Below, piece after piece: positions 860-47,931 of a stretch of DNA of 64,000 nt. The notes under the pieces are model-generated. The model did not search any database, had not been told where the DNA came from, and saw only the letters and a list, made by a program, of their open reading frames with translations. Made by a program: the position numbers and the translations under genes. The stretch spans positions 14,854-78,853 of the forward strand of contig JAEUHS010000058.1 of the NCBI GenBank assembly GCA_016794035.1, given 5' to 3'. Each line of letters opens with the position of its first letter. Within the stretch, counting starts at the first letter, position 1. Source of the stretch: Planctomycetota bacterium (GTDB lineage Bacteria; Planctomycetota; UBA1135; UBA2386).

Positions 860-938
860 GGCGGCTGGGAACTCGGGAAGTTAGCGCGGTTGGCTTTGCA
901 CGTCGCCAGCCGAGCCCTTACCCTCCGCCGCCCGCCGC

Positions 939-1706: not shown

Positions 1707-1794
1707 GTTGCCTCGCCGAGCCCGCGCCCTGATCCTCCTGCGGCCCTGACACCCCTGCGAACGTGCGCCGCGTGCGCGCCGTGATCCGATCCCG

Positions 1795-3483: not shown

Positions 3484-3523
3484 GGCTCGCAGCGGGCGGC
3501 CGCGGGGACGCAGCCGTGGGTGC

Positions 3524-4552
3524 TCAGGCCGGCAGCACGAAGTCGAACTGCACCGTGCCGTCGCGCAGGCGCTGCACGGTGGCCTGGCCGCGGTGGCCGA
3601 GGAACACGGTCTGGGCGAGGAACAGGCCCAGGCCCAGCCCGGGGGCGCGCAGCGCGCGGCTCGGGTAGAACGGCTCGAAGCTGTGCGGCAGCTGCCAGGT
3701 CGCCAGTTCGTGGCCGCTGGCCTCGAGGCGCAGGCGGCGACCGGCGGGCAGGGCATCGAGTCGGACGCGGCACTGCGCGCCGAGCACGGCGAGGTCGTCG
3801 GCGAACTGCAGCAGGCCGAGCAGCGCGGCGCCCAGCTGCTCGGGATCGCCCGGGACCGTGTGGCCGCCCGCGGCGATGGTCAGCGTCGCGTGCTCGCGGT
3901 CGCTGCGGCGGGCGGCGACCGCGGCGCTGAGCAGCAGGGCGAGGTCGACCGGTTCGCGCCGCGCGGGGCCGTGCGCGGCTTCGGCGACCAGGCGCAGGCG
4001 ATCGACGCCGGCCTGGATGCGCTGCACGCCGGCGAGGGCGCTGTCGAGTTGCTCGCGATGCCCGGCGGCGTTCGGGTCGAGGCTGCCGCGCAGCAGCTGC
4101 AGATGGCCGGCGACGAACATCAACGGGTTGTTGATCTCGTCGGCGACCCCGCGCGCCAGGTCGTGGAACACCTCGGGCCGCGGCCGGTTGCCGCCGAGCC
4201 GCGCCTGCTCGAGCACGGCCGCGAGCTGGCCGGGGGCGTCGGGCACCAGCAGCTGCGCGCCGAGCCGGGCCGCCAGCGGTGCGTCCCGCAGCTCGTGGGC
4301 GGCGTCGGTCACCAGCACCACGCCCATCGCCGGCCACAGGTTTCTCAGGGCCCGCAGGGCGCCGACCTCCTCGGCGGGGTCGGGCCCGAACGCGATGCAC
4401 AGCACGTCGGCCTGGAACTGCACGACCGCCTCGCTGTCGTTGCACAACGACGACCAGCGGCGCACTTCGGGGTTCAGCGGCAGCGCGCGCAGGTCGGCGA
4501 GCAGGCGGTCCGTAGCGGGGCCGACGACGGCGATTCGGGCGGGCCGATCCAT
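3524..4552 (-). CDS. Histidine-kinase-like protein with an N-terminal receiver-like domain; H-box His replaced by Asp
   Basis: Track ORF 3524..4606; likely start is MDRPARIAVVG at 4552. The DHp region reads FHDLARGVADEINNPLMFVAGHLQLL, versus the canonical AHEINNPL. The C-terminal HATPase-like region reads FEPFY...GLGLGLFLAQ. The G1-box region reads EASGHEL rather than D-x-G-x-G. Confidence 0.6.
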   Translation of the reverse strand: MDRPARIAVVGPATDRLLADLRALPLNPEVRRWSSLCNDSEAVVQFQADVLCIAFGPDPAEEVGALRALRNLWPAMGVVLVTDAAHELRDAPLAARLGAQLLVPDAPGQLAAVLEQARLGGNRPRPEVFHDLARGVADEINNPLMFVAGHLQLLRGSLDPNAAGHREQLDSALAGVQRIQAGVDRLRLVAEAAHGPARREPVDLALLLSAAVAARRSDREHATLTIAAGGHTVPGDPEQLGAALLGLLQFADDLAVLGAQCRVRLDALPAGRRLRLEASGHELATWQLPHSFEPFYPSRALRAPGLGLGLFLAQTVFLGHRGQATVQRLRDGTVQFDFVLPA

Positions 4553-4684
4553 GGGTGCGGGGCCGCGGCTGGCTCCGTGGCAGCGCCGCAAGCTCGTTCG
4601 CCACAAGCTATCGCGTCATCCGTCCGGTGTCACCATAGCGGCGCGCGCTCCAGCCGTCGCGCGCGTGTGGCCGATAGCACGGCG

Positions 4685-5065
4685 GTGACCGGGGACGGTG
4701 ACGAGCAGGACGCGGCTTCGGCGCCGCACGCGAACGGCGGCCATCGGCCGCCGCTGCGCGCCGTCGACGGTCCGCTCGGTCCCGCCGAACCGCCGCGGGC
4801 GACGCGGCTGCGGCGGGAGTTCAAGGGTCTCACGGTCGCCGACCTGCACTGCGCCGACCTGGTCGAACGCCTGCCCGGCCGCGTGCGCACGGCGCTGCGC
4901 CACCTGCAGCGCGGCGATCTGGCGGCCGCCGACCGCGTGCTGCCCGGCGAGTTCGCGCCGGTGCTGGCCGGGCCGTGGCAGCAGCGTCGACGCCGACAGC
5001 AGCGCGCGCTGGTGATCGTCTTGCTCGTGCTCCTCCTGGCGACGACGGTCGCCCTCTACTGGTGA
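4685..5065 (+). CDS. Hypothetical small protein with a C-terminal transmembrane anchor
   Basis: This is the tail of track ORF 3593..5065. It has high third-position GC and ends in the hydrophobic segment ALVIVLLVLLLATTVALYW. The start is uncertain (in-frame GTG at 4685 or 4667). I recognise no family. Confidence 0.35.
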   Translation: MTGDGDEQDAASAPHANGGHRPPLRAVDGPLGPAEPPRATRLRREFKGLTVADLHCADLVERLPGRVRTALRHLQRGDLAAADRVLPGEFAPVLAGPWQQRRRRQQRALVIVLLVLLLATTVALYW

Positions 5066-5135
5066 GCGCGCCGCCGGGAAAGCGCGCGGAGAACACTCGC
5101 GCCGGGGCGTGCGCCGGTTCACCATCTGCGAGGAC

Positions 5136-6164
5136 ATGGTGAGCGAGCCGGTTCTTCCACCGTCGCAGCGGCGCCCGGCGCCGGAGCCGAGGCCAGCGAC
5201 CGGCAAGGCCCGGCCGGTGATCAGCGTCGTCGTGCCGATCTACAACGAGCACGACAACGTCGAGGCGCTGCACTCGGCGCTGACGCACGCGCTGGTCGCG
5301 ATGGGTCGCGCCTACGAGATCGTGCTGGTCGACGACGGCAGCCGCGACGGCACGCGCGACGTCCTGCGCGCCCTGGCCGCGAACGACCCGCACCTGCGCC
5401 TGCTGCTGTTCCGCCGCAACTACGGTCAGACCGCGGCGATGGCCGCCGGCTTCGCCGCCTGCCGGGGCCGCATCGTCGTGTCGATGGACGGCGACCTGCA
5501 GAACGACCCGGCCGACATCGCCCGTCTGGTCGAGAAGCTCGAGCAGGGCTACGACGTCGTCTGCGGCTGGCGCCGGCACCGGCAGGACCGCGTCGCCACG
5601 CGCCTGATCCCGAGCCGCATCGCCAACTTCCTGATCTCGCGCGTCACCGGCGCGCGCATCCACGACACCGGCTGTTCGCTGAAGGCCTACCGCGGCTGGG
5701 TCGTGCGCAGCCTCGTGCTCTACTCCGACATGCACCGCTTCCTGGCGGCGCTCGGCGTCGGTCTCGGCGCGCGCATCACCGAACTGCCGGTGCGCCACCA
5801 CCCGCGTCTCGCGGGCAAGTCGAAGTACGGGCTCGGCCGCGTGTTCCGGGTGCTGATGGACCTGGTCGGCATCAAGATGCTGATCCAGTTCGCGGCGCAT
5901 CCGATCCGCTGGTTCACGCTGTTGGCGCTGCCGCTGTTCGTGCTGTCGCCTATGATGTTCCTGCTCGGCTTCGTCAAGGCGACGCGCGAACACGGCTGGG
6001 TCTGGTTCGGCGACTACGACATGGCCGCGGTCGCCGCCGGCGCCGTCATGCTGCTGACGGCCGCCAACGTGTTCCTGCTCGGTTTCCTGGCCGAACTGCA
6101 GGTCAAGGTGTCGAAGTTCTTCCGCCAGCGCATCTCGGTCACGGCGCGCGAGGCCTCGCGATGA
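5136..6164 (+). CDS. Family-2 glycosyltransferase, polyprenyl-phosphate sugar transferase type (GtrB/DPM1-like) with C-terminal TM helices
   Basis: Motifs are ISVVVPIYNEHDNV, EIVLVDDGSRDGT, NYGQTAAMAAGF and the catalytic SMDGDLQNDP. Two C-terminal hydrophobic helices follow. I prefer the ATG at 5136 (preceded by GAGGA); the track start is the GTG at 5109. Confidence 0.8.
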   Translation: MVSEPVLPPSQRRPAPEPRPATGKARPVISVVVPIYNEHDNVEALHSALTHALVAMGRAYEIVLVDDGSRDGTRDVLRALAANDPHLRLLLFRRNYGQTAAMAAGFAACRGRIVVSMDGDLQNDPADIARLVEKLEQGYDVVCGWRRHRQDRVATRLIPSRIANFLISRVTGARIHDTGCSLKAYRGWVVRSLVLYSDMHRFLAALGVGLGARITELPVRHHPRLAGKSKYGLGRVFRVLMDLVGIKMLIQFAAHPIRWFTLLALPLFVLSPMMFLLGFVKATREHGWVWFGDYDMAAVAAGAVMLLTAANVFLLGFLAELQVKVSKFFRQRISVTAREASR

Positions 6165-35746: not shown

Positions 35747-35857
35747 GGGCGCACCTTACCAACCCGCGAACGCGCCGTCACTGCGCGCTGGTTCGGCGGC
35801 GAGATCCGCGTCGGCTGCGGCGTGCTTCCCCAACTGGTGACCGCTAGGCTGCCGCCG

Positions 35858-36913
35858 ATGGAGTTTCCCGCCTGGGACCCGGTGCTGTTCGACATTCCGG
35901 GTCTGCCGATCGACATCCGCTGGTACGGCATGATGTACGTGGTCGGCTTCGTCGCCGGGCAGTGGATCCTGGTGCGGCTCGCGCGCGCCGGCTTCTTCCC
36001 CGTCAAACCCGAGGCCGCGCCCGACCTGATCTTCTACTGCGTGTTCGGGGTCATGCTCGGCGGCCGCACCGGCTACGCGCTGTTCTACCAGCACAGCCTG
36101 CTGAACCCGCTGGAGTTCGTGCAGGTCTGGAAGGGCGGGCTGGCGTTCCACGGCGGGCTCGCCGGCGTCGCGGTCGCGATCTGGCTGTTCTGCCGCAAGT
36201 ACCAGATCCGCTGGATGCGCGTCGCCGATGCCTGCGCCCTGGCGGTGACGCCCGGCATCCTCGCGGTGCGCTGCGCGAACTTCATCAACGGCGAACTGTT
36301 CGGGCGCGTGACCCAGAAGGGGGTCGGCTGGGCGATGCAGTTCCCGACCGACGATCGCGCGCTGTCGCTGCTCGGCATCGCCGACGACTGGACCATGCGC
36401 GACCGCGAACTGTGCATCCAGGTCGCCTACGGCAAGCGCACGTTCGACGACGTCAAGGGTCTGCTCAGCCAGGTCGACGGGCACGGCAAGGCGATCGACT
36501 GGAGCGCGGTCGTGCCGAAGCTCGACTGGCAGCACGTGCGCAGCCTCACCGACGTCGACGGCCACCCGCTGGTGCCGTATCGCCACCCGTCGCAGCTCTA
36601 CGAGGGACTCGGGGAGGGCCTGCTGCTGGGCCTCGTGATGCTCGCGCTCTACCTGCTGACGCGGCGACGACCGTGGCGACCGGGTCGCTACGGCGTGGTG
36701 TTCCTGCTCGGCTACGCGGTGGTGCGCTCGTCGCTCGAGTTCGTGCGGGAGCCCGATTCCTGGCTCGGCGTGGTGTGGCTCGGCATGACGATGGGACAGA
36801 TCCTCAGCGCCGGCCTCGTCGTCGGCGCGATGCTGATGCTGTTCTGGCCGCAGCGCGGCGCGGCGGCACCGTCCGGGGGCGGTCCTGGCCATCCGCCGCC
36901 GGCGACGGAATAA
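35858..36913 (+). CDS. lgt: Prolipoprotein diacylglyceryl transferase
   Basis: Motifs are IRWYGMMYVVGFVAG, GGRTGYALFY, WKGGLAFHGGLAGV, RCANFINGELFGR and HPSQLYEGLGEG. At 351 aa it is longer than typical Lgt proteins, owing to an insertion of about 70 aa after GELFGR. Confidence 0.9.
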   Translation: MEFPAWDPVLFDIPGLPIDIRWYGMMYVVGFVAGQWILVRLARAGFFPVKPEAAPDLIFYCVFGVMLGGRTGYALFYQHSLLNPLEFVQVWKGGLAFHGGLAGVAVAIWLFCRKYQIRWMRVADACALAVTPGILAVRCANFINGELFGRVTQKGVGWAMQFPTDDRALSLLGIADDWTMRDRELCIQVAYGKRTFDDVKGLLSQVDGHGKAIDWSAVVPKLDWQHVRSLTDVDGHPLVPYRHPSQLYEGLGEGLLLGLVMLALYLLTRRRPWRPGRYGVVFLLGYAVVRSSLEFVREPDSWLGVVWLGMTMGQILSAGLVVGAMLMLFWPQRGAAAPSGGGPGHPPPATE

Positions 36914-36973
36914 TGACGCGCCGCGGGCCGTCCTCCGCCACCTGCCGATCCGCGGCCCGCCTGCCAGCCTCAG

Positions 36974-39874
36974 ATGACCATGCCCCGCTTCCGAACCGCG
37001 CTGTCGTTGACGTTCCTGGTGGCCTTGACGGTCGGCTGCGACAACGTCGGGCGGGCGTTCGGGCCGAACACCCAGCCGGACCCCGGCGGTGGCACGGCGG
37101 GGGAGTCGACGATCGAAGTCGTGCCGGTCGGCGGCGACCTGCGCGACGGCCGGCCGAAGGTGAAGGCCGCGTTCCCCAACGGCAGCGGCTGGCCGACCCT
37201 GGTGCCGATCGTGATCGAGTTCAGCGAGAGCCTGAACCAGGCCTCGATCCTGCCGACCGCGCCGACCGCGACCGACGGTCGCATCGTCCTGCGCGTGCGC
37301 GGCAGCACCCAGGCGTTGCCGTGCCAGTACGACTTCCTCGCCAACGGTCGCGTGCTGGTGATGCGCCCCGTCACGGCCCTGTCGAACGCACAGGTCGCCA
37401 CCTACGAGGTGGTGCTGCTGCCCGACGGACGGGACGCCGACGGCGTGCGCTTCCTGGTCAACGGCAGCGAGCAGATCCTGACCGACTTCCAGGTCAATCA
37501 GGCCACCTCGTTCACCGACGGTCGCATCCTGACCACGTTCCCGCGCGACAACTCGAGCGACATCACCCGCGAGACCGACTATCTGGTCTTCTTCGATCGG
37601 CCGGCCAACGAGGCCTCGATCAACGCGACGAACATGCGCCTGCGACGGCGCGGCGGCGGTGACGTCGCGGTGTCGCGCACCCTGCCGCTGACCACGGTCG
37701 GCGTCAACGACTCGCGCGTCGTGCGGCTGCGGCCGCAGGACCGGCTGCTGGCGGCGACCACGCACGAGTTCGTCTGCGACGACACGGTGACGTTCGGCAC
37801 CGACGGCAAGCTCGACTTCCGCGGCCGCACGCCGTTCGCCGTGTTCGACACCGTCGGCGTCGCCGCGCCGTCGCTGGTCGAACTGGGCAACCCGGTCACC
37901 GGCTTCCCGAACAAGGTCAACCTGACGAACTTCGCCAACCCCGTGCTGCACGTGACCTCGGCGGTCGATGCCGCGGCCGGTGACCGCATCGTGGCGCGCA
38001 TCTACGGCGGCAAGGCGGACACGTCGAACACGGCCGACATGACGTTCGTCGAGCGCACGGCGGTCCTGCCGGCAGCGGGGGAGCAGACGGTGGCGATCGA
38101 GTTCCCCGGTCTGCTCGGCACTATGGCCCGGCCCAAGTTCGACGACGGCGAGCTGACGTTCGCGGTGCAGGCGCAGCGCGGCGGCGAGCACAGCGGCTTC
38201 GTCCACAACAGCGGCAGCGACGACGCGGCGTTCGACATCACGCTGCCGACGTTGAGCCGCGCCGGACCGCCGAGCGTCGGCACCAGCTTCGACGTCGTCA
38301 CCGACCAGGAATCGCTGGCGTTCTACGGTACGGCCAGCGAGGCGGTCGGCAAGGTGACGCTGACCGACGGCATGGTCTCGGCCGAGCTGTTCGCGTCGTC
38401 CGACGACGGCCGGTTCCTGGTGCGACCGGTGGCGCTCGGGCGCCTGACGGCGCCGCGCACGTATTCGCTGACCCTGCAGGACCGCGCCGGCAACTTCGCC
38501 CCGGGCGCCGTCTCGGGCCAGATCGTGCAGCGCGGCGTCCTGACCGGCACCGTCGCCGACGAACTGACGGTCGAGGTCTACGACCACCGCACGCTGCAGC
38601 CGATCCCCGGCGCGAAGGTGCTGGTCGAGCCGGCGCCGCCGACGGTGCCGTCGACCGGCCGTCAGGTCGGCACGACGGGCAGCAACGGCCGGTTCACGTT
38701 CACGGGCCTGACCGCGCCCAGTCACACGATCACCGTCGTGCAGCCGGGCTTCCATCTGCTGACGATCTACGACACGGCGGCGGCGTTCGCGTCGCTGCCG
38801 CTGCGGCCGCTCAGCAACGTCACCGCGACCCTGCGCGGCAACGTGCTGTTCACGCAGGCGCCGGGCACGACGGTGCTGGTCGGCAGCACGGCGTTCGACG
38901 ATGCGAACGAGTTCGCGGTGCGCACGGCCGACGCGTCGCCGACGACGATTCCCGCGACCAGCATCACGCCGAATCGCCCCGCGATCGTGACTGCGTTCGG
39001 CGGCGTCCTCGAGCCGACCATGCGCCCGGCGTTCACCCTGCAGGGCTTCCAGTCGCTCGGCAACGACGGCATGTCGCTGGCCCCGCCGCCGCTGCCGCCG
39101 GCCGCGGGTGCGGCGTCCGAACAGAGCCTGGTGCTGCTGCCGAGCACCGGGCAGATCGGGCTCCTGTTCCAGCCGGTGCCGCTGGACTTCAGTCTGGCGA
39201 CGGGCCTCGACACCGCCAATCTGGTCGGTGGCGGGCCGTTGGTGCGCGTCACGGCGTCGTTGCGGGGCTTCGCGGCACAGGCGCTGATGGGCGTCGGTTT
39301 CGCGGTCCTCACCACCGGCAGCACGTTCAACATCGACGGCAACTGGACGCTGCCCGGCTTCATCGCCTTCACGCCGTTCGACGCCAACGCACTGGCCTGG
39401 ATCGTCGCCGACGCGCGGGACGGCGCGGGGCGCATCAGCCGCACCCGGATCCGCTTCAACACCCTGACCGGCCTCGACGAGAACCGGGTGCCGCCGCAGG
39501 CGATCCCCGCCGTCACCGTGCCGACGGGGCCGTCTGTCGGCTCGCCGGCGGTCGAGTTCGCCGACGTGCTCGACCCGGCCGCGGTGCTCAGCACTCTGTG
39601 CACCGTCGACGTGGTCGCCGAGGACGCGGCCGGCCGGCGGTGGACGCTGCTGGTGGCCGACAGCGATGCCGCCGGCCTCACCAAGACGGTGCAGTTCCCC
39701 GATCTGACCGGTGCGGGCGTGACCGGGCTGCAGACCGGCACGTGGAACGTGCGACCCGAGGCCCGCACCTGGGTGTCGGTCGGGGCGACCGCCGACGAGT
39801 TCGTGCTGGCCGATCGCCGTCGCCTCGAGGTCGCCTACTCGCGCGGCCTCGCGGTCCCGTTCACGATCCAGTGA
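36974..39874 (+). CDS. Large surface lipoprotein with Ig-like/beta-sandwich repeats
   Basis: 966 aa. The signal plus lipobox is LTFLVALTVGC. SbsA/Big-like segments appear (KVKAAFPNGSGWPTLVPIVIEFSESLNQASI) and a CarboxypepD_reg-like segment (LTGTVADELTVEVYDHRTLQPIPGAKVLVEP...GRFTFTGL). Confidence 0.65.
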   Translation: MTMPRFRTALSLTFLVALTVGCDNVGRAFGPNTQPDPGGGTAGESTIEVVPVGGDLRDGRPKVKAAFPNGSGWPTLVPIVIEFSESLNQASILPTAPTATDGRIVLRVRGSTQALPCQYDFLANGRVLVMRPVTALSNAQVATYEVVLLPDGRDADGVRFLVNGSEQILTDFQVNQATSFTDGRILTTFPRDNSSDITRETDYLVFFDRPANEASINATNMRLRRRGGGDVAVSRTLPLTTVGVNDSRVVRLRPQDRLLAATTHEFVCDDTVTFGTDGKLDFRGRTPFAVFDTVGVAAPSLVELGNPVTGFPNKVNLTNFANPVLHVTSAVDAAAGDRIVARIYGGKADTSNTADMTFVERTAVLPAAGEQTVAIEFPGLLGTMARPKFDDGELTFAVQAQRGGEHSGFVHNSGSDDAAFDITLPTLSRAGPPSVGTSFDVVTDQESLAFYGTASEAVGKVTLTDGMVSAELFASSDDGRFLVRPVALGRLTAPRTYSLTLQDRAGNFAPGAVSGQIVQRGVLTGTVADELTVEVYDHRTLQPIPGAKVLVEPAPPTVPSTGRQVGTTGSNGRFTFTGLTAPSHTITVVQPGFHLLTIYDTAAAFASLPLRPLSNVTATLRGNVLFTQAPGTTVLVGSTAFDDANEFAVRTADASPTTIPATSITPNRPAIVTAFGGVLEPTMRPAFTLQGFQSLGNDGMSLAPPPLPPAAGAASEQSLVLLPSTGQIGLLFQPVPLDFSLATGLDTANLVGGGPLVRVTASLRGFAAQALMGVGFAVLTTGSTFNIDGNWTLPGFIAFTPFDANALAWIVADARDGAGRISRTRIRFNTLTGLDENRVPPQAIPAVTVPTGPSVGSPAVEFADVLDPAAVLSTLCTVDVVAEDAAGRRWTLLVADSDAAGLTKTVQFPDLTGAGVTGLQTGTWNVRPEARTWVSVGATADEFVLADRRRLEVAYSRGLAVPFTIQ

Positions 39875-40531
39875 ATGGCCGCTCCTGCTCGAGGCATCGC
39901 GCTGCTGTCGGGCGGGCTGGACTCCGGCGTCGCGGCGGCGACGTTCGCGCGGCAACCCGGCCGCGTGCTGGCGGCCTGTCTGTTCGTCGCCTACGGCCAG
40001 CGCGCGGCGCGGCCCGAGGCCGAGGCCGCCAGCCGGCTGGCGCGCCGGCTCGCGGCGCCGCTGCTGACGATCGAGCTGCCGTGGCTCGGCGACCTCGCGC
40101 GGTCCAGCGGCAGCCGGCTGATCCGCGGCACCGGCGATCTGCCGCACGGCACCGAGCGAGTCCCCGGTGATGCCGCCAGCGCGGCCGCGGTCTGGGTGCC
40201 GGCGCGCAACGTCGTGTTCGTCGCCATCGCGGCAGCGCACGCCGAGGCGATGGGGGCGCGATTCGTGGTGACCGGCTTCAACCGCGAGGAGGCGGCGACG
40301 TTCGCCGACAACTCGGCGGCGTTCGTCGCGGCCAGCGACACGATGCTGGCGCTCGGCACCCGCACCGGCGTGCAGGTCACGAGTCCGACGCTGGCCCTGG
40401 ACAAGGCGGAGATCGTCGCCTCGGCGCGCGCGCTCGGCTTCACCGCCGCGGACTTCTGGTCGTGCTACGAGGGTGGCGCCGCCCCCTGCGGCCGCTGCGA
40501 ATCGTGCCTGCGCAGCCGCTGGACGCGTTGA
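39875..40531 (+). CDS. queC: 7-cyano-7-deazaguanine synthase
   Basis: ALLSGGLDSGVAAA is the PP-loop (SGGxDS). VPARNVVF is present, and the C-terminal zinc-Cys cluster is WSCYEGGAAPCGRCESC. Confidence 0.85.
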   Translation: MAAPARGIALLSGGLDSGVAAATFARQPGRVLAACLFVAYGQRAARPEAEAASRLARRLAAPLLTIELPWLGDLARSSGSRLIRGTGDLPHGTERVPGDAASAAAVWVPARNVVFVAIAAAHAEAMGARFVVTGFNREEAATFADNSAAFVAASDTMLALGTRTGVQVTSPTLALDKAEIVASARALGFTAADFWSCYEGGAAPCGRCESCLRSRWTR

Positions 40532-40538
40532 TCGACGT

Positions 40539-41360
40539 ATGCTGCCGCGCCGCGGCATGGTCTCGATCTTCGGCATCGTCAACGTCACGCGCGACTCGTT
40601 CTCCGACGGCGGTCGCTTCCTCGAGCCCGCCGCGGCGCTCGCGCAGGCGGAGCGGCTGCTGACGGACGGCGCCGACGTGATCGACGTCGGTGCCGAGTCG
40701 ACGCACCCGGACGCCGAGGACGTCGACGAAGACGCGGAGATCCGGCGCCTGACCCCGGTCGTGCAGGGCCTGCTCGCGCGCGGGGCGAACGTCAGCGTCG
40801 ACACCTGCAAGCCGGCGGTGATGGCCGCGATGACGGCGCTCGGCGTGCACTGGCTCAACGACGTGCACGGCTTCCGCACGCCGGCGGCGCTCGCCACGGC
40901 CGCGGCCGCACCGCCGCACGTGCGTTTCGTCGTGATGCACTCGCGCAGCGCCGCCGCGCGCGCCGAACGCCGCGCGCACGGCGCCGGGACGCTGCTGGCG
41001 GAGCTGCACGCGTTCTTCGCCGAGCGCCTCGCCGCGTTCCGGGCCGCGGGCGTCGCGCCGGAACGGCTGGCGTTCGATCCCGGCATGGGCTTCTTCCTCG
41101 GCAGCGGTGCCCAGCCGAGCCTGACGGTGCTGCGGCACCTCGACGAACTCAGGCGCTTCGCGGTGCCGTTGCTGGTGTCCGTGTCGCGCAAGTCGTTCCT
41201 CGGTGAGGTGACGGGTCGGCCCGTCGCGGAGCGTGGACCCGGCACCCTGGCGGCCGAGCTGTGGGCGGCGCGGCACGGCGCCGACTTCGTGCGCACGCAC
41301 GACGTCGCGGCGCTGCGGGCCGGGATCGCGGTCGAACGAGCCATCGCGGCGGCGCCATGA
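40539..41360 (+). CDS. folP: Dihydropteroate synthase
   Basis: Motifs are IFGIVNVTRDSFSDGG, ADVIDVGAESTHP, SVDTCKP, DPGMGFF, LLVSVSRKSF and VRTHDV. Confidence 0.9.
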   Translation: MLPRRGMVSIFGIVNVTRDSFSDGGRFLEPAAALAQAERLLTDGADVIDVGAESTHPDAEDVDEDAEIRRLTPVVQGLLARGANVSVDTCKPAVMAAMTALGVHWLNDVHGFRTPAALATAAAAPPHVRFVVMHSRSAAARAERRAHGAGTLLAELHAFFAERLAAFRAAGVAPERLAFDPGMGFFLGSGAQPSLTVLRHLDELRRFAVPLLVSVSRKSFLGEVTGRPVAERGPGTLAAELWAARHGADFVRTHDVAALRAGIAVERAIAAAP

Positions 41361-42121
41361 TCCCGCTGCGCGACAGCATCCCCGCCAGCCGCACGCCGGT
41401 CGTCAACTACGCGATGATCGGTCTGTGCTCGCTGGTGTTCGCCGCCCAGCTCGCCGACCCGGACGGCGCGCTCGTCGAACGGCTCGGCATGGTGCCGGCG
41501 CGCGTGCTCGAACCCGGCGTCGACCACGTCGTGCGCGGTCTGGGCCGGCCGCACCTGCTGGTGCCGGCGCTGGTGCCGGAGTGGGCGACGCTGCTGACCT
41601 GCACGTTCCTGCACGGCGGCTGGCTGCACTTCATCGGCAACATGCTGTTCCTGTGGATCTTCGGCGACAACGTCGAGGATCGCTTCGGCCGGCTGCCCTA
41701 CCTGGTCTTCTACCTGGTCAGCGGCGCCGCGGCCTCGGCGTCGCACCTGCTCAGCGCGCCCGGCTCGACGGTGCCGACCATCGGCGCCAGCGGCGCGATC
41801 GCCGGCGTCATGGGCGCCTACATGCTGCTGTATCCGCGGTCGCGGGTGCAGATGCTGATCGTGTTCGGCTTCTTCGTCGACGTGATCGTGCTGCCGGCGC
41901 CGTTCTTCCTCGGCTACTGGTTCCTGCTGCAGCTGCTGCAGGGATCGCTGTCGGCCGGAGCCGACGGCGGTGGCGTTGCCTGGTGGGCGCACATCGGCGG
42001 CTTCGTGCTCGGTGCGGCGGTGGCGGCGACCCTGCGCATGCTCGAACGGCTGCGGCCCGAACCCCCGACCGTGGTGCTGTCGCGACAACGCTGGGGCGGC
42101 AACTTCCGGCGTCTGCGGTAG
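41357..42121 (+). CDS. Rhomboid-family intramembrane serine protease
   Basis: The ATGA overlaps the folP stop. Motifs are FLHGGWLHFIGNMLFLWIFG, the catalytic Ser in GASGAIAGVMG, and the His context AHIGGF. Confidence 0.85.
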   Translation: MIPLRDSIPASRTPVVNYAMIGLCSLVFAAQLADPDGALVERLGMVPARVLEPGVDHVVRGLGRPHLLVPALVPEWATLLTCTFLHGGWLHFIGNMLFLWIFGDNVEDRFGRLPYLVFYLVSGAAASASHLLSAPGSTVPTIGASGAIAGVMGAYMLLYPRSRVQMLIVFGFFVDVIVLPAPFFLGYWFLLQLLQGSLSAGADGGGVAWWAHIGGFVLGAAVAATLRMLERLRPEPPTVVLSRQRWGGNFRRLR

Positions 42122-42127
42122 CCGATC

Positions 42128-42179
42128 CGGCCGGGCGCCGGCACGCGCCCAGGGGTCCCGATTCGGGGCCGCCCGGCCG
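42128..42179 (+). terminator. Candidate hairpin after the rhomboid gene
   Basis: CGGCCGGGCG-N32-CGCCCGGCCG gives a 10-bp GC stem with a large loop, starting 7 nt after the stop. There is no U-tract. Confidence 0.2.
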
Positions 42180-42258
42180 CGACGCGATCTCAAGTCCGGG
42201 CCGGGGAAGGCCGAAAGTCATCCCGTCGTGGTGCCGGCAGCGGCCCCGCACGAGGTGC

Positions 42259-42990
42259 ATGGAATCCGTCAACGAAATCAAGGAAGCCCTCTCGGCTCGC
42301 TCCCGCACGGCGACTCTCGACGAGTTGCGCAGCGAAGGGCGGCGTCGGGTGCGCCTCGTTCGGGCCGAGCACATCGCCGCGATGATCAGCGAGGCGGTGC
42401 ACACCGCCATCGAGCAGTCGGGGCTGATCGGGCAGGACGAGGTCGACCGGCTGGTCGACAAGAGCCGTCAGGAGTTCCGTTCGATCCTGAAGGAGCGCGA
42501 GGCCGAGGTGCAGCGCGCGCACGAGATCGAGGAGACGCTGGCGGAACGTGAGACCGAACTCGCGGCGCTGAAGAGCCGCTGCGCCGAGCTGACGGCCGCA
42601 CTCGCGTCGAAGCAGCAGGCTCCGGCCGCCACCGGCGCGGCGGCGCCGTCGGGCGACCTGGTGATGTCGCTGATGCAGGAGATGGCCAACATGAAGGCCA
42701 GCCTGATGCAGCGCGACGCGCAGCCCGCGCCGGCCGCCGGCGCCGCCGACTTCTCGGCGGCGATCGAGAAGCTGGCCGGTTCGCTGAACGACCGGCTCGA
42801 GACGATCGGCAAGAAGATGGGCGTGAGCGCCGCGGTCGAGTCGAACACGCCCATGGACTTCAGCAGCCTGTTCGCCGACGACGGCAAGTCGCTCGAGTCG
42901 AACATGGAGAACATCGAGGTGAAGCAGAAGTCGGCCGGCGGCATCGCCGGCAACCTGGCTCGCCTGAAGAAGCTCAAGGGCGGCAGCTAG
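42259..42990 (+). CDS. Coiled-coil protein with a basic amphipathic C-terminus
   Basis: The ATG at 42259 follows GAGG. There are about 100 aa of heptad-like sequence (KEREAEVQRAHEIEETLAERETELAALKSRCAELTAAL). The C-terminus is KSAGGIAGNLARLKKLKGGS. I recognise no family. Confidence 0.55.
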   Translation: MESVNEIKEALSARSRTATLDELRSEGRRRVRLVRAEHIAAMISEAVHTAIEQSGLIGQDEVDRLVDKSRQEFRSILKEREAEVQRAHEIEETLAERETELAALKSRCAELTAALASKQQAPAATGAAAPSGDLVMSLMQEMANMKASLMQRDAQPAPAAGAADFSAAIEKLAGSLNDRLETIGKKMGVSAAVESNTPMDFSSLFADDGKSLESNMENIEVKQKSAGGIAGNLARLKKLKGGS

Positions 42991-43030
42991 GCCGTCCGGA
43001 CTGGCATTACGGGAAGCAAGGCGGAGAGCA

Positions 43031-44077
43031 ATGACGCAGCATCAGAACCACAACGATCCCAGTGTCGACCATGGCGCCGACACGGCCGTCGCCCTCGGCA
43101 AGGGCCTCGACGTCGGCACCGCGAATCTCGCGGCAGCCGTCCAGAACGACGAAGGCGGCATCACGGTGAACGTGGAGCGCAACGCGTTCCTCGACATCCC
43201 CAGTGACGTCTACAGCAAGAACATGCTGACGAAGCTGAAGGTGCCCTACGTGGTGCACAACAACAAGCTCGTCGTCATCGGCGAGGCCGCGTTCGAGCTG
43301 GCCAACGTGTTCGGGCGCGAGACGCGCCGGCCGATGGCGGACGGACTGATCAGCCCCAACGAGCAGGACGCGCTGCCGATGATGAAGATGATCATCGGCA
43401 AGATCCTCGGCGAGCCGCGGGTGCAGGGTGAGCACTGCTACTTCTGCGTGCCGGCCCCGTCGCTGGACGTCGACAACAACGTCGTCTACCACCAGGGTCT
43501 GTTCGAGGGGATGATCAACAAGATGGGCTACACCGCGCACGCCATCAACGAGGCGCACGCGGTCATCTTCGCCGAGCTGGCGGAGAGCGACTTCACCGGC
43601 ATCGGCCTGTCGTTCGGCGGTGGCATGGCCAACGCCTGCATCGCCTACAAGTCGATCCCGTGCCTGTCGTTCTCGGTCGCGCGCGGCGGCGACTGGATCG
43701 ACAAGAACGTCGCCAACGTGCTCGGCTGCCCGCGCAGCAAGGCGACGCACATCAAGGAGCGCGGCATCGACATCCGCGACCCGAAGAGCCGCGAGGAAGA
43801 GGCGGTGTCGATCTACTACCGCAGCCTGATCAACTACGTGCTGCAGAACATCAAGACGCGCTTCGAGTCCGGCAAGAACATGCCGAGCTTCAACAACCCG
43901 ATCGACATCGCCTGCGCCGGTGGCACGTCGATGATCGGCGGCTTCATCGAGGTCTTCCGCGACGAGTTCGCGAAGATCGACTTCCCGCTGCCGGTCGGCC
44001 GCATCTTCCGCAGCGAAGAGGCCCTGACCGCGGTGGCCAAGGGCTGCCTGGTGGCGGCCGCGATCGGCGAGAGCTGA
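43031..44077 (+). CDS. Divergent actin-like ATPase (ASKHA superfamily; MreB/MamK/ParM-like)
   Basis: 348 aa with GGAG 7 nt upstream. Phosphate-1 is GLDVGTANL. The MreB-like block is VVIGEAAFELANVFGRETRRPMADGLIS. Phosphate-2 is GIGLSFGGGMAN. The adenosine motif is IACAGGTSMIGGF. Confidence 0.65.
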   Translation: MTQHQNHNDPSVDHGADTAVALGKGLDVGTANLAAAVQNDEGGITVNVERNAFLDIPSDVYSKNMLTKLKVPYVVHNNKLVVIGEAAFELANVFGRETRRPMADGLISPNEQDALPMMKMIIGKILGEPRVQGEHCYFCVPAPSLDVDNNVVYHQGLFEGMINKMGYTAHAINEAHAVIFAELAESDFTGIGLSFGGGMANACIAYKSIPCLSFSVARGGDWIDKNVANVLGCPRSKATHIKERGIDIRDPKSREEEAVSIYYRSLINYVLQNIKTRFESGKNMPSFNNPIDIACAGGTSMIGGFIEVFRDEFAKIDFPLPVGRIFRSEEALTAVAKGCLVAAAIGES

Positions 44078-44087
44078 TCGGGTCCGC

Positions 44088-44107
44088 GCTGCCGCCCCGG
44101 CGGCAGC
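44088..44107. terminator. Bidirectional hairpin between convergent genes
   Basis: GCTGCCGCC-CC-GGCGGCAGC is a perfect 9-bp inverted repeat (effectively an 8-bp stem with a 4-nt loop). It lies 10 nt after the actin-like gene stop and 5 nt after the chorismate mutase stop. Confidence 0.4.
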
Positions 44108-47061: not shown

Positions 47062-47481
47062 TCAGGTCCCGGGCGGCGCCGCGCGCGGCGCCGTGAGCCG
47101 CAGCAGGAAGCCGCAGTAGCACACCGCATAGGCGCAGGCCCCGTGCCAGACGGTGCGCAGCCACAGGCTGGTCTCGCTCGGGTGCTGGCTCTCGACGAAC
47201 AGCTCGAGCAGGCCGCCGAGCAGCCCGGCCGGCACCGCGACGACCGCCGCCGCCAGGGCCGCCAGCGTCACCGGGTTCGAATCGGGTGGCAGCTTGGGCA
47301 TCGGGGCGGGTCGGCTCAGGCGCCGCCCGACTACGTGCAGCGAGAACGCGCCGGCGACGACCACCAGCCACTCCGTCGCGGACAGCGCGATGCCGCGGAA
47401 GTGGGCGACGCCGGCGATCCAGAGCAAGGCCACCAGCACCGGGCACAGGCCCAGGATGCGACGGAACCATCGATTCGACAT
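47062..47481 (-). CDS. Hypothetical membrane protein (4 predicted TM segments)
   Basis: 139 aa, strongly hydrophobic, with high GC3. I recognise no family. Confidence 0.5.
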   Translation of the reverse strand: MSNRWFRRILGLCPVLVALLWIAGVAHFRGIALSATEWLVVVAGAFSLHVVGRRLSRPAPMPKLPPDSNPVTLAALAAAVVAVPAGLLGGLLELFVESQHPSETSLWLRTVWHGACAYAVCYCGFLLRLTAPRAAPPGT

Positions 47482-47494
47482 CGGCAGCCTCGAC

Positions 47495-47821
47495 CTAGAG
47501 CGTGATCACCTTCGCCGCGCGGCCCAGCTCGCGCAGGATCGTGTCCATGTCCGCGACCTTGCCGACGGCCGGCGTGATGCCGAAGTGCTGCAGGCAGGTG
47601 CCGCACGGCACCAGGTCGACGCCGCGTTCCTCCAGCAGCCGCAGCTCGGTCAGCACCGGCGAGTCCGCGGCCACCAGCCTGACGCCGCCGTTGAAGAACA
47701 CGATGGCGGTGAAGTCGGGCAGGCTGATCGACTTCTTCAGGAACGTGCCGAGGATCTTCTGGCCGAGCGGGCGGTCCCCGTGGCCCATCTGGTCCTGGTT
47801 CAAGACGACGATCGTGTCCAT
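47495..47821 (-). CDS. DsrE-like protein resembling the C-terminal domain of selenium-metabolism protein YedF
   Basis: MDTIVVLNQDQMGHGDRPLGQKILGTFLKKS...IVFFNGGVRLVAADSPVLTELRLLEERGVDLVPCGTCLQHFGI...VGKVADMDTI. This matches my recollection of the DsrE-like half of the YedF selenium-metabolism family (the ...G.G...LG..L...F...FlN.GV.L......L..L...GV.i..CGTCL...... pattern). There is no SirA/TusA-like N-domain. An alternative ATG lies at 47860. Confidence 0.55.
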   Translation of the reverse strand: MDTIVVLNQDQMGHGDRPLGQKILGTFLKKSISLPDFTAIVFFNGGVRLVAADSPVLTELRLLEERGVDLVPCGTCLQHFGITPAVGKVADMDTILRELGRAAKVITL

Positions 47822-47931
47822 CGCGGCATCGTCGTCAGCCGGCGGCCGGCCCGCCAGCATCGAACATCGTGCTTTCGCGGCGGCGGTGCCATCCGTAGCC
47901 TCAGCGGCCTGCGCCGCTCTACCGAAACCTC

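What the first reader, a model, noticed from the sequence alone, without database searches (positions are those of the whole stretch)
42259..44077. Divergent actin-like ATPase with an upstream coiled-coil partner: possible uncharacterised cytoskeletal pair
ORF 43031..44077 has the actin/ASKHA motif series:
- Phosphate-1 is GLDVGTANL.
- An MreB/MamK-like block is VVIGEAAFEL...RRPMADGLIS.
- The adenosine motif is ACAGGTSMIGG.
- The phosphate-2 motif reads LSFGGGM, with Ser where MreB, ParM and actin have Asp.
There is no mreC/mreD context. 40 nt upstream is a 243-aa coiled-coil protein. Its C-terminus (GIAGNLARLKKLKGGS) looks like an amphipathic membrane-targeting helix. A rhomboid protease gene precedes the pair. 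The actin-like gene is visibly richer in Lys/Asn/Ile codons than its Arg/Ala-rich neighbours. That suggests strong constraint or a different evolutionary history. Filament plus adaptor pairs are the known precedent (ParM/ParR, MamK/MamJ, AlfA/AlfB), but neither protein here matches a family I can name.
Basis: partly seen in the sequence, partly recalled or inferred. Interest (0 to 1): 0.65.

Follow-up and report, generated by a model that had tools for sequence, protein, structure and literature searches.

The report
Planctomycete volactin-type actin with adaptor
An uncultured wastewater planctomycete carries a co-transcribed gene pair for an actin-like filament protein of the "volactin" family (so far studied only in salt-loving archaea) and an undescribed partner that is always encoded directly in front of it, so the pair is probably a bacterial filament-plus-adaptor system that nobody has studied experimentally.

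Summary
Both ORFs and all four quoted motifs are real. The 348-aa protein is not an orphan. It is a full-length member of Pfam PF25216 Volactin (270 bits; MreB_Mbl only 22 bits, below threshold). Its predicted actin fold is closest to MamK and MreB (TM 0.62-0.70, about 19% identity).

The Ser in place of the phosphate-2 Asp is invariant in the clade. It is also a hallmark of the whole family (248 of 256 domains).

The low G+C comes from amino-acid content only: GC3 is 0.95, like the neighbours. This indicates constraint, not recent transfer.

The 243-aa partner lies directly upstream in 79 of 80 related Planctomycetota loci, while other neighbours vary. An RNA contig spans the gene junction.

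The partner's N-terminal domain is fused to the actin domain in eight other protein clusters, and those fusions lack the C-terminal tail.

That tail (...LKKLKGG) resembles the tail of the 4-TM CdpA-like protein encoded upstream of archaeal volactin genes (hhalign P 4e-4; 0 of 300 shuffles reach the score). It also resembles the tail of a winged-helix-like protein upstream of a CPR volactin gene.

I read the tail as the filament-docking element rather than a membrane anchor. Cargo and cellular role are unknown.

The parts
42226..42258 (+). Inferred promoter-proximal region and short 5' leader of the two-gene operon, with GAGG 3 nt before the ATG.
   Evidence: Metatranscriptome contigs begin at 42251, 42259 and 42268. 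Depth is 0 at 42112-42225 in three of four runs. Sequence. No sigma-70 consensus was found.
42259..42990 (+). Partner (adaptor) gene, 243 aa. It belongs to no Pfam, NCBIfam or PDB family.
   Evidence: It lies immediately upstream and on the same strand in 79 of 80 related loci, at 31-83% identity.
42259..42504 (+). Partner head: the conserved N-terminal domain (res 1-82; MESVNEIKEALSARSRTATLDELRSEGRRRVRLVRAEHIAAMI...). It is predicted as three short helices leading into the long helix.
   Evidence: Conservation. AF2 on a relative. A profile of this domain hits the N-termini of eight actin-fused proteins, E 4.8e-10 to 3.9e-3.
42505..42813 (+). Variable helical and disordered spacer (res 83-185), rich in Ala, Gln and Glu. 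Its length varies among orthologues.
   Evidence: Only generic coiled-coil hits were found.
42814..42987 (+). Partner tail module (res 186-243): KMGVSAAVE...LESNMENIEVKQKSAGGIAGNLARLKKLKGGS. It is the best-conserved part of the partner and the inferred filament-docking element.
   Evidence: Conservation. hhalign to the tail of archaeal volactin-adjacent DUF7139/CdpA-like proteins gives score 25.6, P 4.4e-4; 300 column shuffles give mean 10.9, max 17.5. The tail is absent from the fused forms. In the relative that was folded, the corresponding segment is predicted as a strand plus a helix at pLDDT 64-74, flanked by disorder.
42991..43030 (+). 40-nt intergenic spacer with a GGAG ribosome-binding site 6 nt before the actin ATG.
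   Evidence: Sequence. The RNA contig X25 record 2 (477 nt, 2 differences) spans 42920-43396 across it.
43031..44077 (+). Volactin-family actin-like ATPase gene, 348 aa.
   Evidence: PF25216: 270.3 bits, E 3.4e-80, profile positions 3-321 of 321. AF2 plus Foldseek: MamK 5ljv TM 0.70, MreB 4czk 0.68. Identity is 65-98% across 80 loci.
43103..43129 (+). Phosphate-1 motif GLDVGTANL (res 25-33).
   Evidence: D27, G29, T30, A31 and N32 are invariant in 76 of 76 sequences.
43607..43627 (+). Phosphate-2 motif LSFGGGM (res 193-199), with Ser194 where MreB, ParM and actin have Asp.
   Evidence: S194 is invariant in 76 of 76 and present in 248 of 256 across the family. The comparison with MreB, ParM, FtsA and actin is in Suppl. 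Fig. 8b of PMC10869688.
43910..43942 (+). Adenosine motif ACAGGTSMIGG (res 294-304).
   Evidence: G297, G298, T299 and G304 are invariant.
44088..44107 (.). G+C-rich hairpin GCTGCCG-CCCCGG-CGGCAGC between the convergent actin and chorismate mutase genes. It may be a terminator but has no T-tract.
   Evidence: Read from the sequence. The terminator scan did not call it. RNA depth falls after 44077.

Best explanation
SHOWN.
- 42259-44077 is a self-contained, co-transcribed two-gene unit in the core chromosome of an uncultured, high-G+C Planctomycetota bacterium from activated sludge.
- Gene 2 encodes a bacterial member of the Volactin family of actin-like ATPases. It has a complete nucleotide-binding motif set, the family-typical Ser at phosphate-2, and unusually strong sequence constraint.
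- Gene 1 encodes a dedicated partner built of three parts: a conserved N-terminal head, a variable helical/disordered spacer, and a conserved 58-residue tail ending in LKKLKGG.

INFERRED.
- The actin polymerises with ATP into dynamic cytoplasmic filaments, as shown for Haloferax volactin.
- The partner is its adaptor. The tail docks on the actin subunit or filament, as ParR's C-terminal helix docks on ParM. The head connects the filament to an unknown cargo or anchor.
- Across the family the head is exchangeable: a four-TM CdpA-like domain in archaea, a winged-helix-like domain in a CPR bacterium, and ParB-HTH or HU heads fused directly to the actin in other bacteria.
- In lineages where the head is fused covalently to the actin, the tail is no longer needed and is gone.

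The cellular task (positioning or segregating DNA, a membrane site or another structure, or shape or division in a probably FtsZ-less phylum) is not determined.

The confidence of 0.6 is for the whole statement. The SHOWN part alone I put at about 0.9, and the tail-docks-on-filament mechanism alone at about 0.5.
For: Family and fold
- PF25216 scores 270 bits over its full length, against MreB_Mbl 22 bits (gathering score 27) and TIGR00904 18 bits (cutoff 366).
- The fold is closest to MamK, MreB and BeeR, TM 0.62-0.70.
- The protein is 39-41% identical to haloarchaeal copies.
- In a family tree the window clade is monophyletic (support 1.0) and apart from the archaeal clade.

Pairing
- The partner is upstream in 79 of 80 loci with a gap of 22-202 nt. 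The one exception is cut by a contig end. folP, queC, chorismate mutase, rhomboid and U32 are kept in only 12-31 loci.
- A Rosetta-stone pattern: the head profile hits the N-termini of 8 independent actin-fused clusters (P0126 at 4.8e-10, down to P0151 at 3.9e-3). None of them carries the tail.
- The fused proteins are full PF25216 members.

Tail
- It is the most conserved part of a fast-evolving protein.
- hhalign to 124 archaeal volactin-adjacent DUF7139 proteins gives P 4.4e-4, with 0 of 300 column shuffles reaching the score.
- Those archaeal partners already have 4 TM segments (PMC12126565).
- The CPR upstream protein ends in ...AVSFLKKLKGKEGF, 8 nt before its volactin gene. The tail HMM scores 4.7 bits; 1 of 500 shuffles reaches it.
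- In a read-through pseudo-fusion of a relative (92% identical actin), AF2 predicts the tail as an ordered strand plus helix (pLDDT 64-74) between disordered stretches.

Expression
- RNA contigs with 0-2 differences lie on both genes, and one spans the junction.

Literature
- Volactin forms dynamic filaments tip-anchored at the membrane, and its binding factors are unknown (PMC10869688).
- HVO_2016 lies next to volactin, and CdpA-HA pulls volactin down (PMC12126565).
Against: - No polymerisation, ATPase or binding data exist for any bacterial member.
- I could not see model coordinates, so where (or whether) the tail docks on the actin domain is unknown.
- The pseudo-fusion was built on a relative (L010), not on the window's own pair, which is out of frame.
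- The hhalign probability is only 22-34%. The shared motif is short and basic, so convergence is possible.
- The tail HMM does not detect the upstream ORFs of two huge phages or of the Methanosarcinales partner.
- The hydrophobic moment of the tail (0.21-0.26) is similar to that of the MinD membrane-targeting sequence (0.27), so physical chemistry does not exclude membrane binding.
- The phosphate-2 Ser could mean weak or altered hydrolysis.
- RNA contigs from metatranscriptomes can contain DNA carry-over.
Confidence: 0.6

Rival explanations
1. The C-terminal basic amphipathic helix is a membrane-targeting sequence. The partner's head or coiled coil binds the actin, and the partner tethers filaments to the inner face of the membrane, as FtsA or MinD tails do.
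For: - The tail is basic (+3 to +4) and amphipathic, with a hydrophobic moment like that of the MinD MTS.
- Haloferax volactin filaments are anchored to the membrane by their tips.
- The head is what stays attached to the actin in fused proteins. That could mean that head and actin are the interacting pair.
Against: - Membrane-targeting helices are usually conserved in character, not residue by residue. Here 58 residues are conserved, including an invariant ESN and GI.
- The homologous tail sits on archaeal partners that are already integral membrane proteins with 4 TM segments, and on a CPR partner whose head looks like a DNA-binding winged helix.
- The fusions lose exactly the tail.
Confidence: 0.18
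2. A ParMRC-like DNA segregation machine. The partner head binds a centromere-like DNA site or the nucleoid, and growing volactin-type filaments push or pull chromosomes apart in a lineage that may lack FtsZ.
For: - Other family members carry DNA-binding heads on the same actin domain: HU (P0200, 37.7 bits) and ParB-HTH (P0128, 21 bits; from Planctomycetota MAGs). There is also a wHTH-like upstream partner in CPR.
- The head here is Arg-rich (GRRRVRLVR).
- Volactin dynamics resemble those of ParM (PMC10869688).
Against: - The head has no detectable DNA-binding fold or family.
- I did not look for a repeat array or centromere-like site next to the operon.
- The archaeal partner's head is a membrane domain, so cargo differs between lineages.
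- The locus is chromosomal housekeeping context, not a plasmid or prophage.
Confidence: 0.2
3. The partner is a regulator of assembly rather than a cargo adaptor. It would be a nucleator, capper or monomer-sequestering factor, in the manner of WH2-domain proteins. Its helix-plus-LKK tail would control when and where the actin polymerises.
For: - The tail resembles, from memory only, the WH2 pattern of an amphipathic helix followed by LKKT/V.
- Volactin polymerisation in Haloferax appears tightly regulated by unknown factors.
- The long helix could dimerise and bring two tails together, which is the usual design of tandem nucleators.
Against: - The WH2 likeness was not tested, and no WH2 family hit was found.
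- Exchangeable heads with membrane or DNA-binding character fit coupling to cargo better than pure regulation.
Confidence: 0.15
4. An ordinary but divergent MreB that guides peptidoglycan synthesis. The upstream gene would be an unrelated neighbour.
For: Foldseek's top hits include MreB, and some sources annotate relatives as 'actin-like ATPase involved in cell morphogenesis'.
Against: - MreB models score below threshold: 22 bits against a gathering score of 27, and 18 against 366.
- Identity to MreB structures is 18-20%.
- There is no mreCD or rodA/pbp2 context.
- The partner is conserved in 79 of 80 loci and fused elsewhere.
- The archaeal members occur in wall-less organisms.
Confidence: 0.03

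Closest known systems
Volactin (VolA, HVO_2015) of Haloferax volcanii with the adjacent CdpA-like membrane protein HVO_2016 (Pfam PF25216; PF23600 CdpA_N/DUF7139)
   Same: - Same Pfam family over its full length (270 bits), 39-41% identity to haloarchaeal copies, and the same motif set with Ser at phosphate-2 in most members.
- Same gene order: a partner of roughly 250-300 aa immediately upstream on the same strand.
- The partner tails align (hhalign P 4e-4, above all 300 shuffles).
   Different: - The organism is a bacterium (Planctomycetota), and the clade is separate from the archaeal one in the tree.
- The partner's head is a soluble helical domain with no TM segment, not a 4-TM CdpA_N domain.
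- The tail motif is at the extreme C-terminus rather than about 50 residues before it.
- H. volcanii VolA itself has Asp at phosphate-2 (Suppl. Fig. 8b).
- There are no functional data for the bacterial pair.
ParM/ParR (ParMRC plasmid segregation, R1 plasmid; PDB 4a62 shows the ParR C-terminal peptide on ParM)
   Same: An actin-like filament plus a small adaptor encoded beside it. In ParMRC the adaptor's C-terminal helix binds the filament subunit and its N-terminal domain binds cargo. This is the working model proposed here.
   Different: - No sequence relation: ParM structures rank far below MreB and MamK (TM about 0.43-0.46).
- The locus is chromosomal and housekeeping, not on a plasmid.
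- No RHH fold or centromere repeats were identified.
- The gene order is adaptor first, then the actin.
MamK/MamJ of magnetotactic bacteria
   Same: MamK is the best structural match (5ljv_A, TM 0.70). It is also a filament with a dedicated acidic or repetitive adaptor that links cargo (magnetosomes) to the filament.
   Different: Identity to MamK is only 17-19%. The MreB_Mbl Pfam model that covers MamK is below threshold here. There are no magnetosome genes, and the partner is unrelated to MamJ.
Saltatorellin, the MamK-like second actin of Saltatorellus (bioRxiv 10.1101/817700)
   Same: A non-MreB actin homologue reported from a planctomycete-related lineage and shown to form filaments in E. 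coli.
   Different: It is a different protein. The primers in the preprint give the termini MTDITTD... and ...YWEQLK, and it is described as MamK-like. The window protein starts MTQHQNH, ends AAIGES and is volactin-type. No partner was described for saltatorellin.
MreB/RodZ
   Same: Actin fold, TM 0.62-0.68 to C. crescentus and T. maritima MreB. MreB is also coupled to the envelope through a dedicated partner.
   Different: The family thresholds are failed. There is no mreCD context and no N-terminal amphipathic helix on the actin. The family includes wall-less archaea.

Membership tests
Volactin family (Pfam PF25216) | Full-length match to the family HMM above the gathering score | tested here: met
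   270.3 bits against a cutoff of 35, E 3.4e-80, profile positions 3-321 of 321. All top homologues carry PF25216.
Volactin family (Pfam PF25216) | Actin/ASKHA fold with phosphate-1, connect, phosphate-2 and adenosine motifs | tested here: met
   AF2 models. Foldseek probability 1.00 to MamK, MreB and actin. The motifs are invariant in 76 orthologues.
Volactin family (Pfam PF25216) | Forms dynamic filaments in vivo (the property for which volactin was named) | not testable with these tools
   Known only for H. volcanii VolA-msfGFP (PMC10869688).
Volactin family (Pfam PF25216) | Role in cell-shape transition (rod to disk) | not testable with these tools
   This is specific to the archaeal model. 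There is no reason to transfer it to a bacterium.
MreB/Mbl (PF06723, TIGR00904) | Score above the family threshold | tested here: not met
   PF06723 scores 22.1 bits against a gathering score of 27, over a partial stretch. TIGR00904 scores 18.3 bits against 365.75.
MreB/Mbl (PF06723, TIGR00904) | Genomic association with mreC/mreD/pbp2/rodA | tested here: not met
   None is within about 5 kb on either side.
ParMRC-type segregation system | Adaptor with a DNA-binding (RHH) N-terminal domain and centromere repeats next to the operon | tested here: inconclusive
   The head has no detectable DNA-binding family. AF2 gives three short helices. Repeats were not searched for.
ParMRC-type segregation system | Adaptor C-terminal helix binds the actin-like subunit | not testable with these tools
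   Indirect support only.
ParMRC-type segregation system | Carried on a plasmid or prophage | tested here: not met
   The context is housekeeping chromosome. The only plasmid hits are haloarchaeal megaplasmids.
CdpA-like / DUF7139 (PF23600) volactin-adjacent partners | N-terminal four-TM CdpA_N domain | tested here: not met
   The partner has no PF23600 hit and no hydrophobic segment.
CdpA-like / DUF7139 (PF23600) volactin-adjacent partners | Cytoplasmic tail with the conserved ...GLKxLKGGE element, encoded immediately upstream of a volactin gene | tested here: met
   hhalign aligns partner residues 186-243 with archaeal residues 188-253: score 25.6, P 4.4e-4, 0 of 300 shuffles at or above it. 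The gene order is the same. The HH probability is only 22-34%, so homology as opposed to convergence remains open.
Membrane-targeting amphipathic helix (MinD/FtsA type) | Terminal amphipathic basic helix sufficient for membrane binding | tested here: inconclusive
   Hydrophobic moment is 0.21-0.26 and charge +3 to +4, similar to the MinD MTS at 0.27. Sufficiency needs an experiment.

The most novel reading that the evidence does not exclude
Volactin-family filaments, in Bacteria and Archaea alike, would be coupled to their cargo by one ancient docking mode. A protein encoded immediately upstream would present a conserved tail of about 55 residues, ending in a basic L-K-x-L-K-G-G helix, that binds the filament. 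Its head would be freely exchanged: a soluble helical domain here, a 4-TM CdpA_N domain in archaea, a winged helix in CPR. In some lineages the head (this one, ParB-HTH or HU) is fused directly to the actin instead.

In this uncultured Planctomycetota clade, whose dcw cluster was noted by another reader to lack ftsQAZ, the pair would be a core, highly constrained cytoskeletal system. It would take over a positioning, segregation or division task normally done by other machinery.
Probability: 0.3. Interest if true: 0.8.

Novelty: new variant of a known kind. Interest (0 to 1): 0.6.

Why it matters
**What is known so far.** Volactin was named in 2024 and has been studied in one haloarchaeon. Its authors state that its binding factors are unknown.

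**What this locus adds.**
- The family has a large, extremely conserved bacterial branch.
- It supplies a concrete candidate for the missing binding factor, one that can be tested with a short peptide.
- It suggests that the CdpA-like neighbour of archaeal volactin uses the same tail.

**Relevance to Planctomycetota.** Their division and cell organisation without FtsZ remain unexplained. A transcribed, strongly constrained actin-plus-adaptor operon is an obvious candidate component.

**Limits.** The family is already named. The filament-plus-adaptor logic has precedents in ParM/ParR and MamK/MamJ. The organism is uncultured. The same module has already been flagged at orthologous loci by this scan.

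Tried and rejected
I could not check whether the genome has mreBCD or ftsZ, or a second volactin paralogue.
2. A sequence search of the actin against PDB gave nothing meaningful (best E 0.55). The fold search was needed.
3. The partner gave only generic coiled-coil noise against Pfam and NCBIfam, and as a 35-sequence profile against PDB and Pfam.
4. The first AF2 model of the actin alone was mediocre (pLDDT 66.9, 31 sequences).
5. A true co-fold was not available.
   - As a substitute I used relatives in which partner and actin are in the same frame. Their DNA was read through the stop codon (tables 25 and 6) to make paired rows, and L010:4146-6044 was folded.
   - This improved the actin domain to pLDDT 85-95 and gave an ordered tail. 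No coordinates are returned, so the docking site could not be read.
6. Saltatorellin was considered as the identity of this protein and rejected, because its termini differ and it is MamK-like.
7. The lokiactin-like actin of 'Ca. Uab amorphum' was considered and rejected as a different clade.
8. Recent horizontal transfer as the cause of the low G+C was rejected, because GC3 is 0.95.
9. The 48-residue tail HMM against three single archaeal partners was not significant. Only the profile-profile comparison with 124 archaeal sequences was.
10. The tail HMM did not detect the upstream ORFs of the two huge phages or of the Methanosarcinales partner. I therefore do not claim the motif for phages.
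11. P0158, P0226 and P0247 look like chimeric or frameshifted assemblies and were not used as evidence.
12. The hydrophobic moment does not discriminate a membrane helix from a protein-binding helix.
Full report
**Observation**

The two ORFs exist as described: 42259..42990 (243 aa) and 43031..44077 (348 aa), same strand, 40 nt apart, with a GGAG 6 nt before the second ATG. All four quoted motif blocks are present.

In 76 orthologues D27, G29, T30, E174, S194, G196-198 and G297-T299 never vary. The neighbours are queC, folP, a rhomboid protease, chorismate mutase, a U32 peptidase and purD. This is a housekeeping context with no mreC/mreD.

The actin gene is 64.8% G+C in a 68-76% neighbourhood.

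**Identity of the actin-like protein**

It is not family-less.
- Pfam PF25216 'Volactin' matches from profile position 3 to 321 of 321, at 270 bits and E 3.4e-80.
- MreB_Mbl (22 bits) and FtsA (23 bits) stay below their gathering scores.
- NCBIfam mreB reaches 18 bits against a cutoff of 366.

Volactin is HVO_2015 of Haloferax volcanii. It is an actin homologue that forms dynamically unstable cytoplasmic filaments anchored to the membrane by their tips and promotes the rod-to-disk transition. Its authors note that its binding factors are unknown (PMC10869688).

Structure predictions gave:
- actin alone: pLDDT 66.9;
- the actin domain inside a deeper paired alignment: pLDDT 85-95.

Foldseek places the domain closest to the MamK filament form (5ljv_A, TM 0.70), C. 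crescentus MreB (0.68) and BeeR (0.67). Eukaryotic actin is at about 0.55. Identity is 17-20%.

Haloarchaeal copies are 39-41% identical to the window protein.

In a FastTree of 256 family domains the window's clade is monophyletic (support 1.0). It is nested among unnamed, bacterial-type sequences and is separate from a clade holding all 121 archaeal sequences.

**The phosphate-2 Ser**

Ser occupies that column in 248 of 256 domains, including 118 of 121 archaeal ones. H. volcanii VolA itself is printed with Asp (GVDFGAGT; Suppl. Fig. 8b). What the Ser does to hydrolysis is unknown.

**Composition**

GC3 of the actin gene is 0.95, the same as its neighbours (0.90-0.95). The G+C deficit lies in codon positions 1 and 2, because 30% of residues are K/N/I/F/Y/M, against 10-17% in the housekeeping neighbours and 19% in the partner. 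Together with 65-98% identity across 80 loci, this points to protein-level constraint holding out against the genome's G+C pressure. It does not point to recent import.

**Organism**

All named relatives are Planctomycetota MAGs. A few carry obviously automatic labels such as 'Brocadiaceae' or 'Luminiphilus'. The stretch occurs almost word for word in many activated-sludge metagenomes.

**The partner is a dedicated partner**

In 79 of 80 related loci a homologue of the 243-aa protein lies immediately upstream on the same strand, with a gap of 22-202 nt. The one exception is cut off by the contig end.

The other neighbours are kept much less often: folP in 31 loci, queC in 24, chorismate mutase in 22, rhomboid in 17 and U32 in 12. 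The partner evolves fast (31-83% identity) while the actin does not.

Its conservation falls into three parts:
- a head of about 80 residues;
- a variable Ala/Gln/Glu-rich spacer;
- a tail of 58 residues (KMGxSxAVE ... LESNMDN.xVKxK..GGIAANLxRLKKLKGGG), which is the best-conserved part.

It has no Pfam, NCBIfam or PDB relative beyond coiled-coil noise.

**Fusions**

An exhaustive HMMER search of 1.84 billion cluster representatives found 1143 family members, 385 of them at E <= 1e-30. Many have extra domains.

A profile of the partner's head hits the N-termini of eight independent actin-fused clusters: P0126 at 4.8e-10, then P0143, P0148, P0169, P0161, P0187, P0155 and P0151 (3.9e-3). None of these contains the tail. 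The two of them that I scanned against Pfam (P0126 and P0143) are bona fide PF25216 proteins.

This Rosetta-stone pattern ties head and actin together functionally. It also shows that the tail is dispensable once the link is covalent.

Other heads fused to the same actin domain:
- ParB-HTH (P0128, 21 bits; its relatives P0133 and P0135 are from Planctomycetota MAGs);
- HU (P0200, 37.7 bits);
- a second actin domain (P0123).

P0138 instead carries a Wzz/BY-kinase module C-terminal to the actin domain.

**Archaeal and CPR contexts**

I retrieved archaeal volactins and read four contexts: Natronomonas, Halapricum, a Methanosarcinales MAG and the Halogeometricum megaplasmid. In the first three the gene immediately upstream on the same strand is a roughly 300-aa four-TM protein with PF23600 (CdpA_N/DUF7139). 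In Halogeometricum it is an unscanned 'hypothetical protein' that resembles them by eye. This agrees with the published remark that CdpA-like HVO_2016 lies next to volactin, and that CdpA-HA pulls volactin down (PMC12126565).

Their cytoplasmic tails carry a conserved ...QVxGLKxLKGGE... element.

Profile-profile alignment of the planctomycete partner against 124 archaeal partners pairs residues 186-243 with archaeal residues 188-253:
- score 25.6, P 4.4e-4, HH probability 22-34%;
- 300 column-shuffled controls gave mean 10.9, sd 2.1, max 17.5;
- the reversed alignment gave 14.1.

In a CPR (Minisyncoccales) genome the gene ending 8 nt before the volactin gene encodes a 146-aa protein. It has a weak winged-helix hit and the C-terminus ...AVSFLKKLKGKEGF. 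A 20-residue tail HMM scores it at 4.7 bits, reached by 1 of 500 shuffles.

The same HMM does not detect the upstream ORFs of two huge uncultured phages that encode volactin-like proteins (LR745208.1 at 42.6% identity, LR756511.1 at 32.4%). It also misses the Methanosarcinales partner. I therefore do not extend the motif to these.

**Pseudo-co-fold**

No multimer prediction was on hand. In 18 relatives the two genes are in the same frame. I read 15 of them through the stop codon (NCBI tables 25 and 6) to obtain naturally paired rows, added unpaired rows, and folded L010:4146-6044. Its actin is 92% and its partner 65% identical to the window's.

The result had mean pLDDT 76.9:

| Region | Residues | Prediction | pLDDT |
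|---|---|---|---|
| Head | 1-55 | three short helices | 56-79 |
| Long helix | 59-141 | one continuous helix | 84-97 |
| Stretches after the long helix | 144-156, 177-191, 214-224 | disordered | below 50 |
| Tail | 249-253 and 257-268 | five-residue strand, then helix | 64-74 |
| Link to actin domain | 269-304 | disordered | below 50 |

A strand needs a pairing strand, and the partner has no other. This hints at docking on the actin domain. However, the tool returns no coordinates, so this is not shown.

**Expression**

Sludge and freshwater metatranscriptome assemblies contain contigs with 0-2 differences on both genes. One 477-nt contig spans 42920-43396, which covers the partner's end, the spacer and the actin's start. 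Contigs begin at 42251-42268. Depth is zero at 42112-42225 in three of four runs.

The pair therefore appears to be its own transcription unit with a short leader, separate from the rhomboid gene. Two caveats apply: contigs are not reads, and DNA carry-over is possible.

**Interpretation**

What is shown: a volactin-family actin and a dedicated, co-transcribed partner.

What is inferred:
- The actin polymerises.
- The partner is its adaptor.
- The tail is the filament-docking element. It is residue-level conserved, it is shared with partners that already have TM anchors or a DNA-type head, and it is lost on fusion.
- The head binds an unknown cargo.

The rivals are listed with their odds.

**Relation to earlier notes of this scan**

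After I had found the archaeal context, a look-up by sequence showed that three follow-up agents had reached essentially the same reading at orthologous loci in other genomes. A fourth first-reader note describes a similar pair. I treat these as agreement, not as evidence.

Another first-reader note on this genome reports a dcw cluster without ftsQAZ. I did not test it.

**Not done**

**Verdict**

This is a real, conserved and expressed two-gene cytoskeletal module. The actin belongs to a named family. The bacterial branch, the partner family and the shared tail are not in the literature I could search. I rate it a new variant of a known kind, with interest 0.6.

Noticed in passing
P0140, P0172, P0174, P0176, P0178, P0190, P0211, P0213, P0217, P0224, P0236 (representative volactin-family proteins): Inteins (Hint plus LAGLIDADG or HNH-like modules) interrupt the volactin domain at five or more different sites, in and just after the phosphate-2 loop. 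One example is ...GISVSC|LTPG...VVHN|CGGGM. Multiple independent insertions at the catalytic loop are typical of highly conserved, important genes. The host organisms are unknown.
   Followed up: partly
P0128, P0133, P0135, P0136, P0137, P0139 (ParB-HTH heads) and P0200 (HU head): These volactin domains carry N-terminal DNA-binding heads: HTH_ParB at 21 bits (just under the gathering score) and Bac_DNA_binding/HU at 37.7 bits. Many of the ParB-HTH forms end in a conserved acidic tail ...[DN][LFI]PL[IF]S. At least P0133 and P0135 are from Planctomycetota MAGs. They look like single-chain DNA-plus-filament proteins.
   Followed up: partly
L087 (Minisyncoccales MAG JBARPC010000005.1), 1-6044: In this CPR genome the volactin gene sits between a wHTH-like partner and two GvpL/GvpF-family genes (one of them fused to DnaJ). 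An ArsA-type ATPase and a CDC48-like AAA ATPase are nearby. This context is quite different from the planctomycete one.
   Followed up: no
P0123, P0124, P0127: These proteins have two volactin domains in tandem. The first copy is degenerate, for example CAGGAF or CGGGPF at phosphate-2.
   Followed up: no
P0138 (1160 aa): A volactin domain is fused N-terminally to a Wzz/GNVR chain-length-determinant module plus a BY-kinase-like P-loop ATPase. This links the actin to a polysaccharide co-polymerase. It was not checked whether this is a gene-calling fusion.
   Followed up: no
L085 (LR745208.1, 485 kb) 2938-3981 and L088 (LR756511.1, 595 kb) 2007-3026: Two huge uncultured phages encode volactin-family proteins, 42.6% and 32.4% identical to the window's. 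In L085 the upstream ORF overlaps the actin start and ends ...DAMGALKAVRKKSHGTTKE. It looks tail-like by eye, but the tail HMM does not detect it.
   Followed up: partly
P0158, P0226, P0247: These predicted proteins join pieces of the actin to pieces of the partner or to unrelated genes. In P0158, actin residues 1-174 run straight into the partner's tail. They are most likely chimeric metagenome assemblies or frameshifted copies.
   Followed up: partly
window 35756..42193 (-) and other long antisense ORFs: At this G+C content very long spurious ORFs run antisense to real genes, for example 2145 aa on the minus strand. The partner's reading frame is open back to 41233. The ATG at 42259 is fixed by the conserved N-terminus and by where the RNA contigs start.
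   Followed up: yes
window 36974..39874 (+): A 966-aa protein, apparently secreted or a lipoprotein, with Big_5 and CarboxypepD_reg domains lies upstream of queC. It is not related to the finding.
   Followed up: no
window 47062..47481 (-) and 47495..47860 (-): A 139-aa hydrophobic protein with no family lies next to a DsrE/DsrF-like protein, between the U32 peptidase gene and purD.
   Followed up: no
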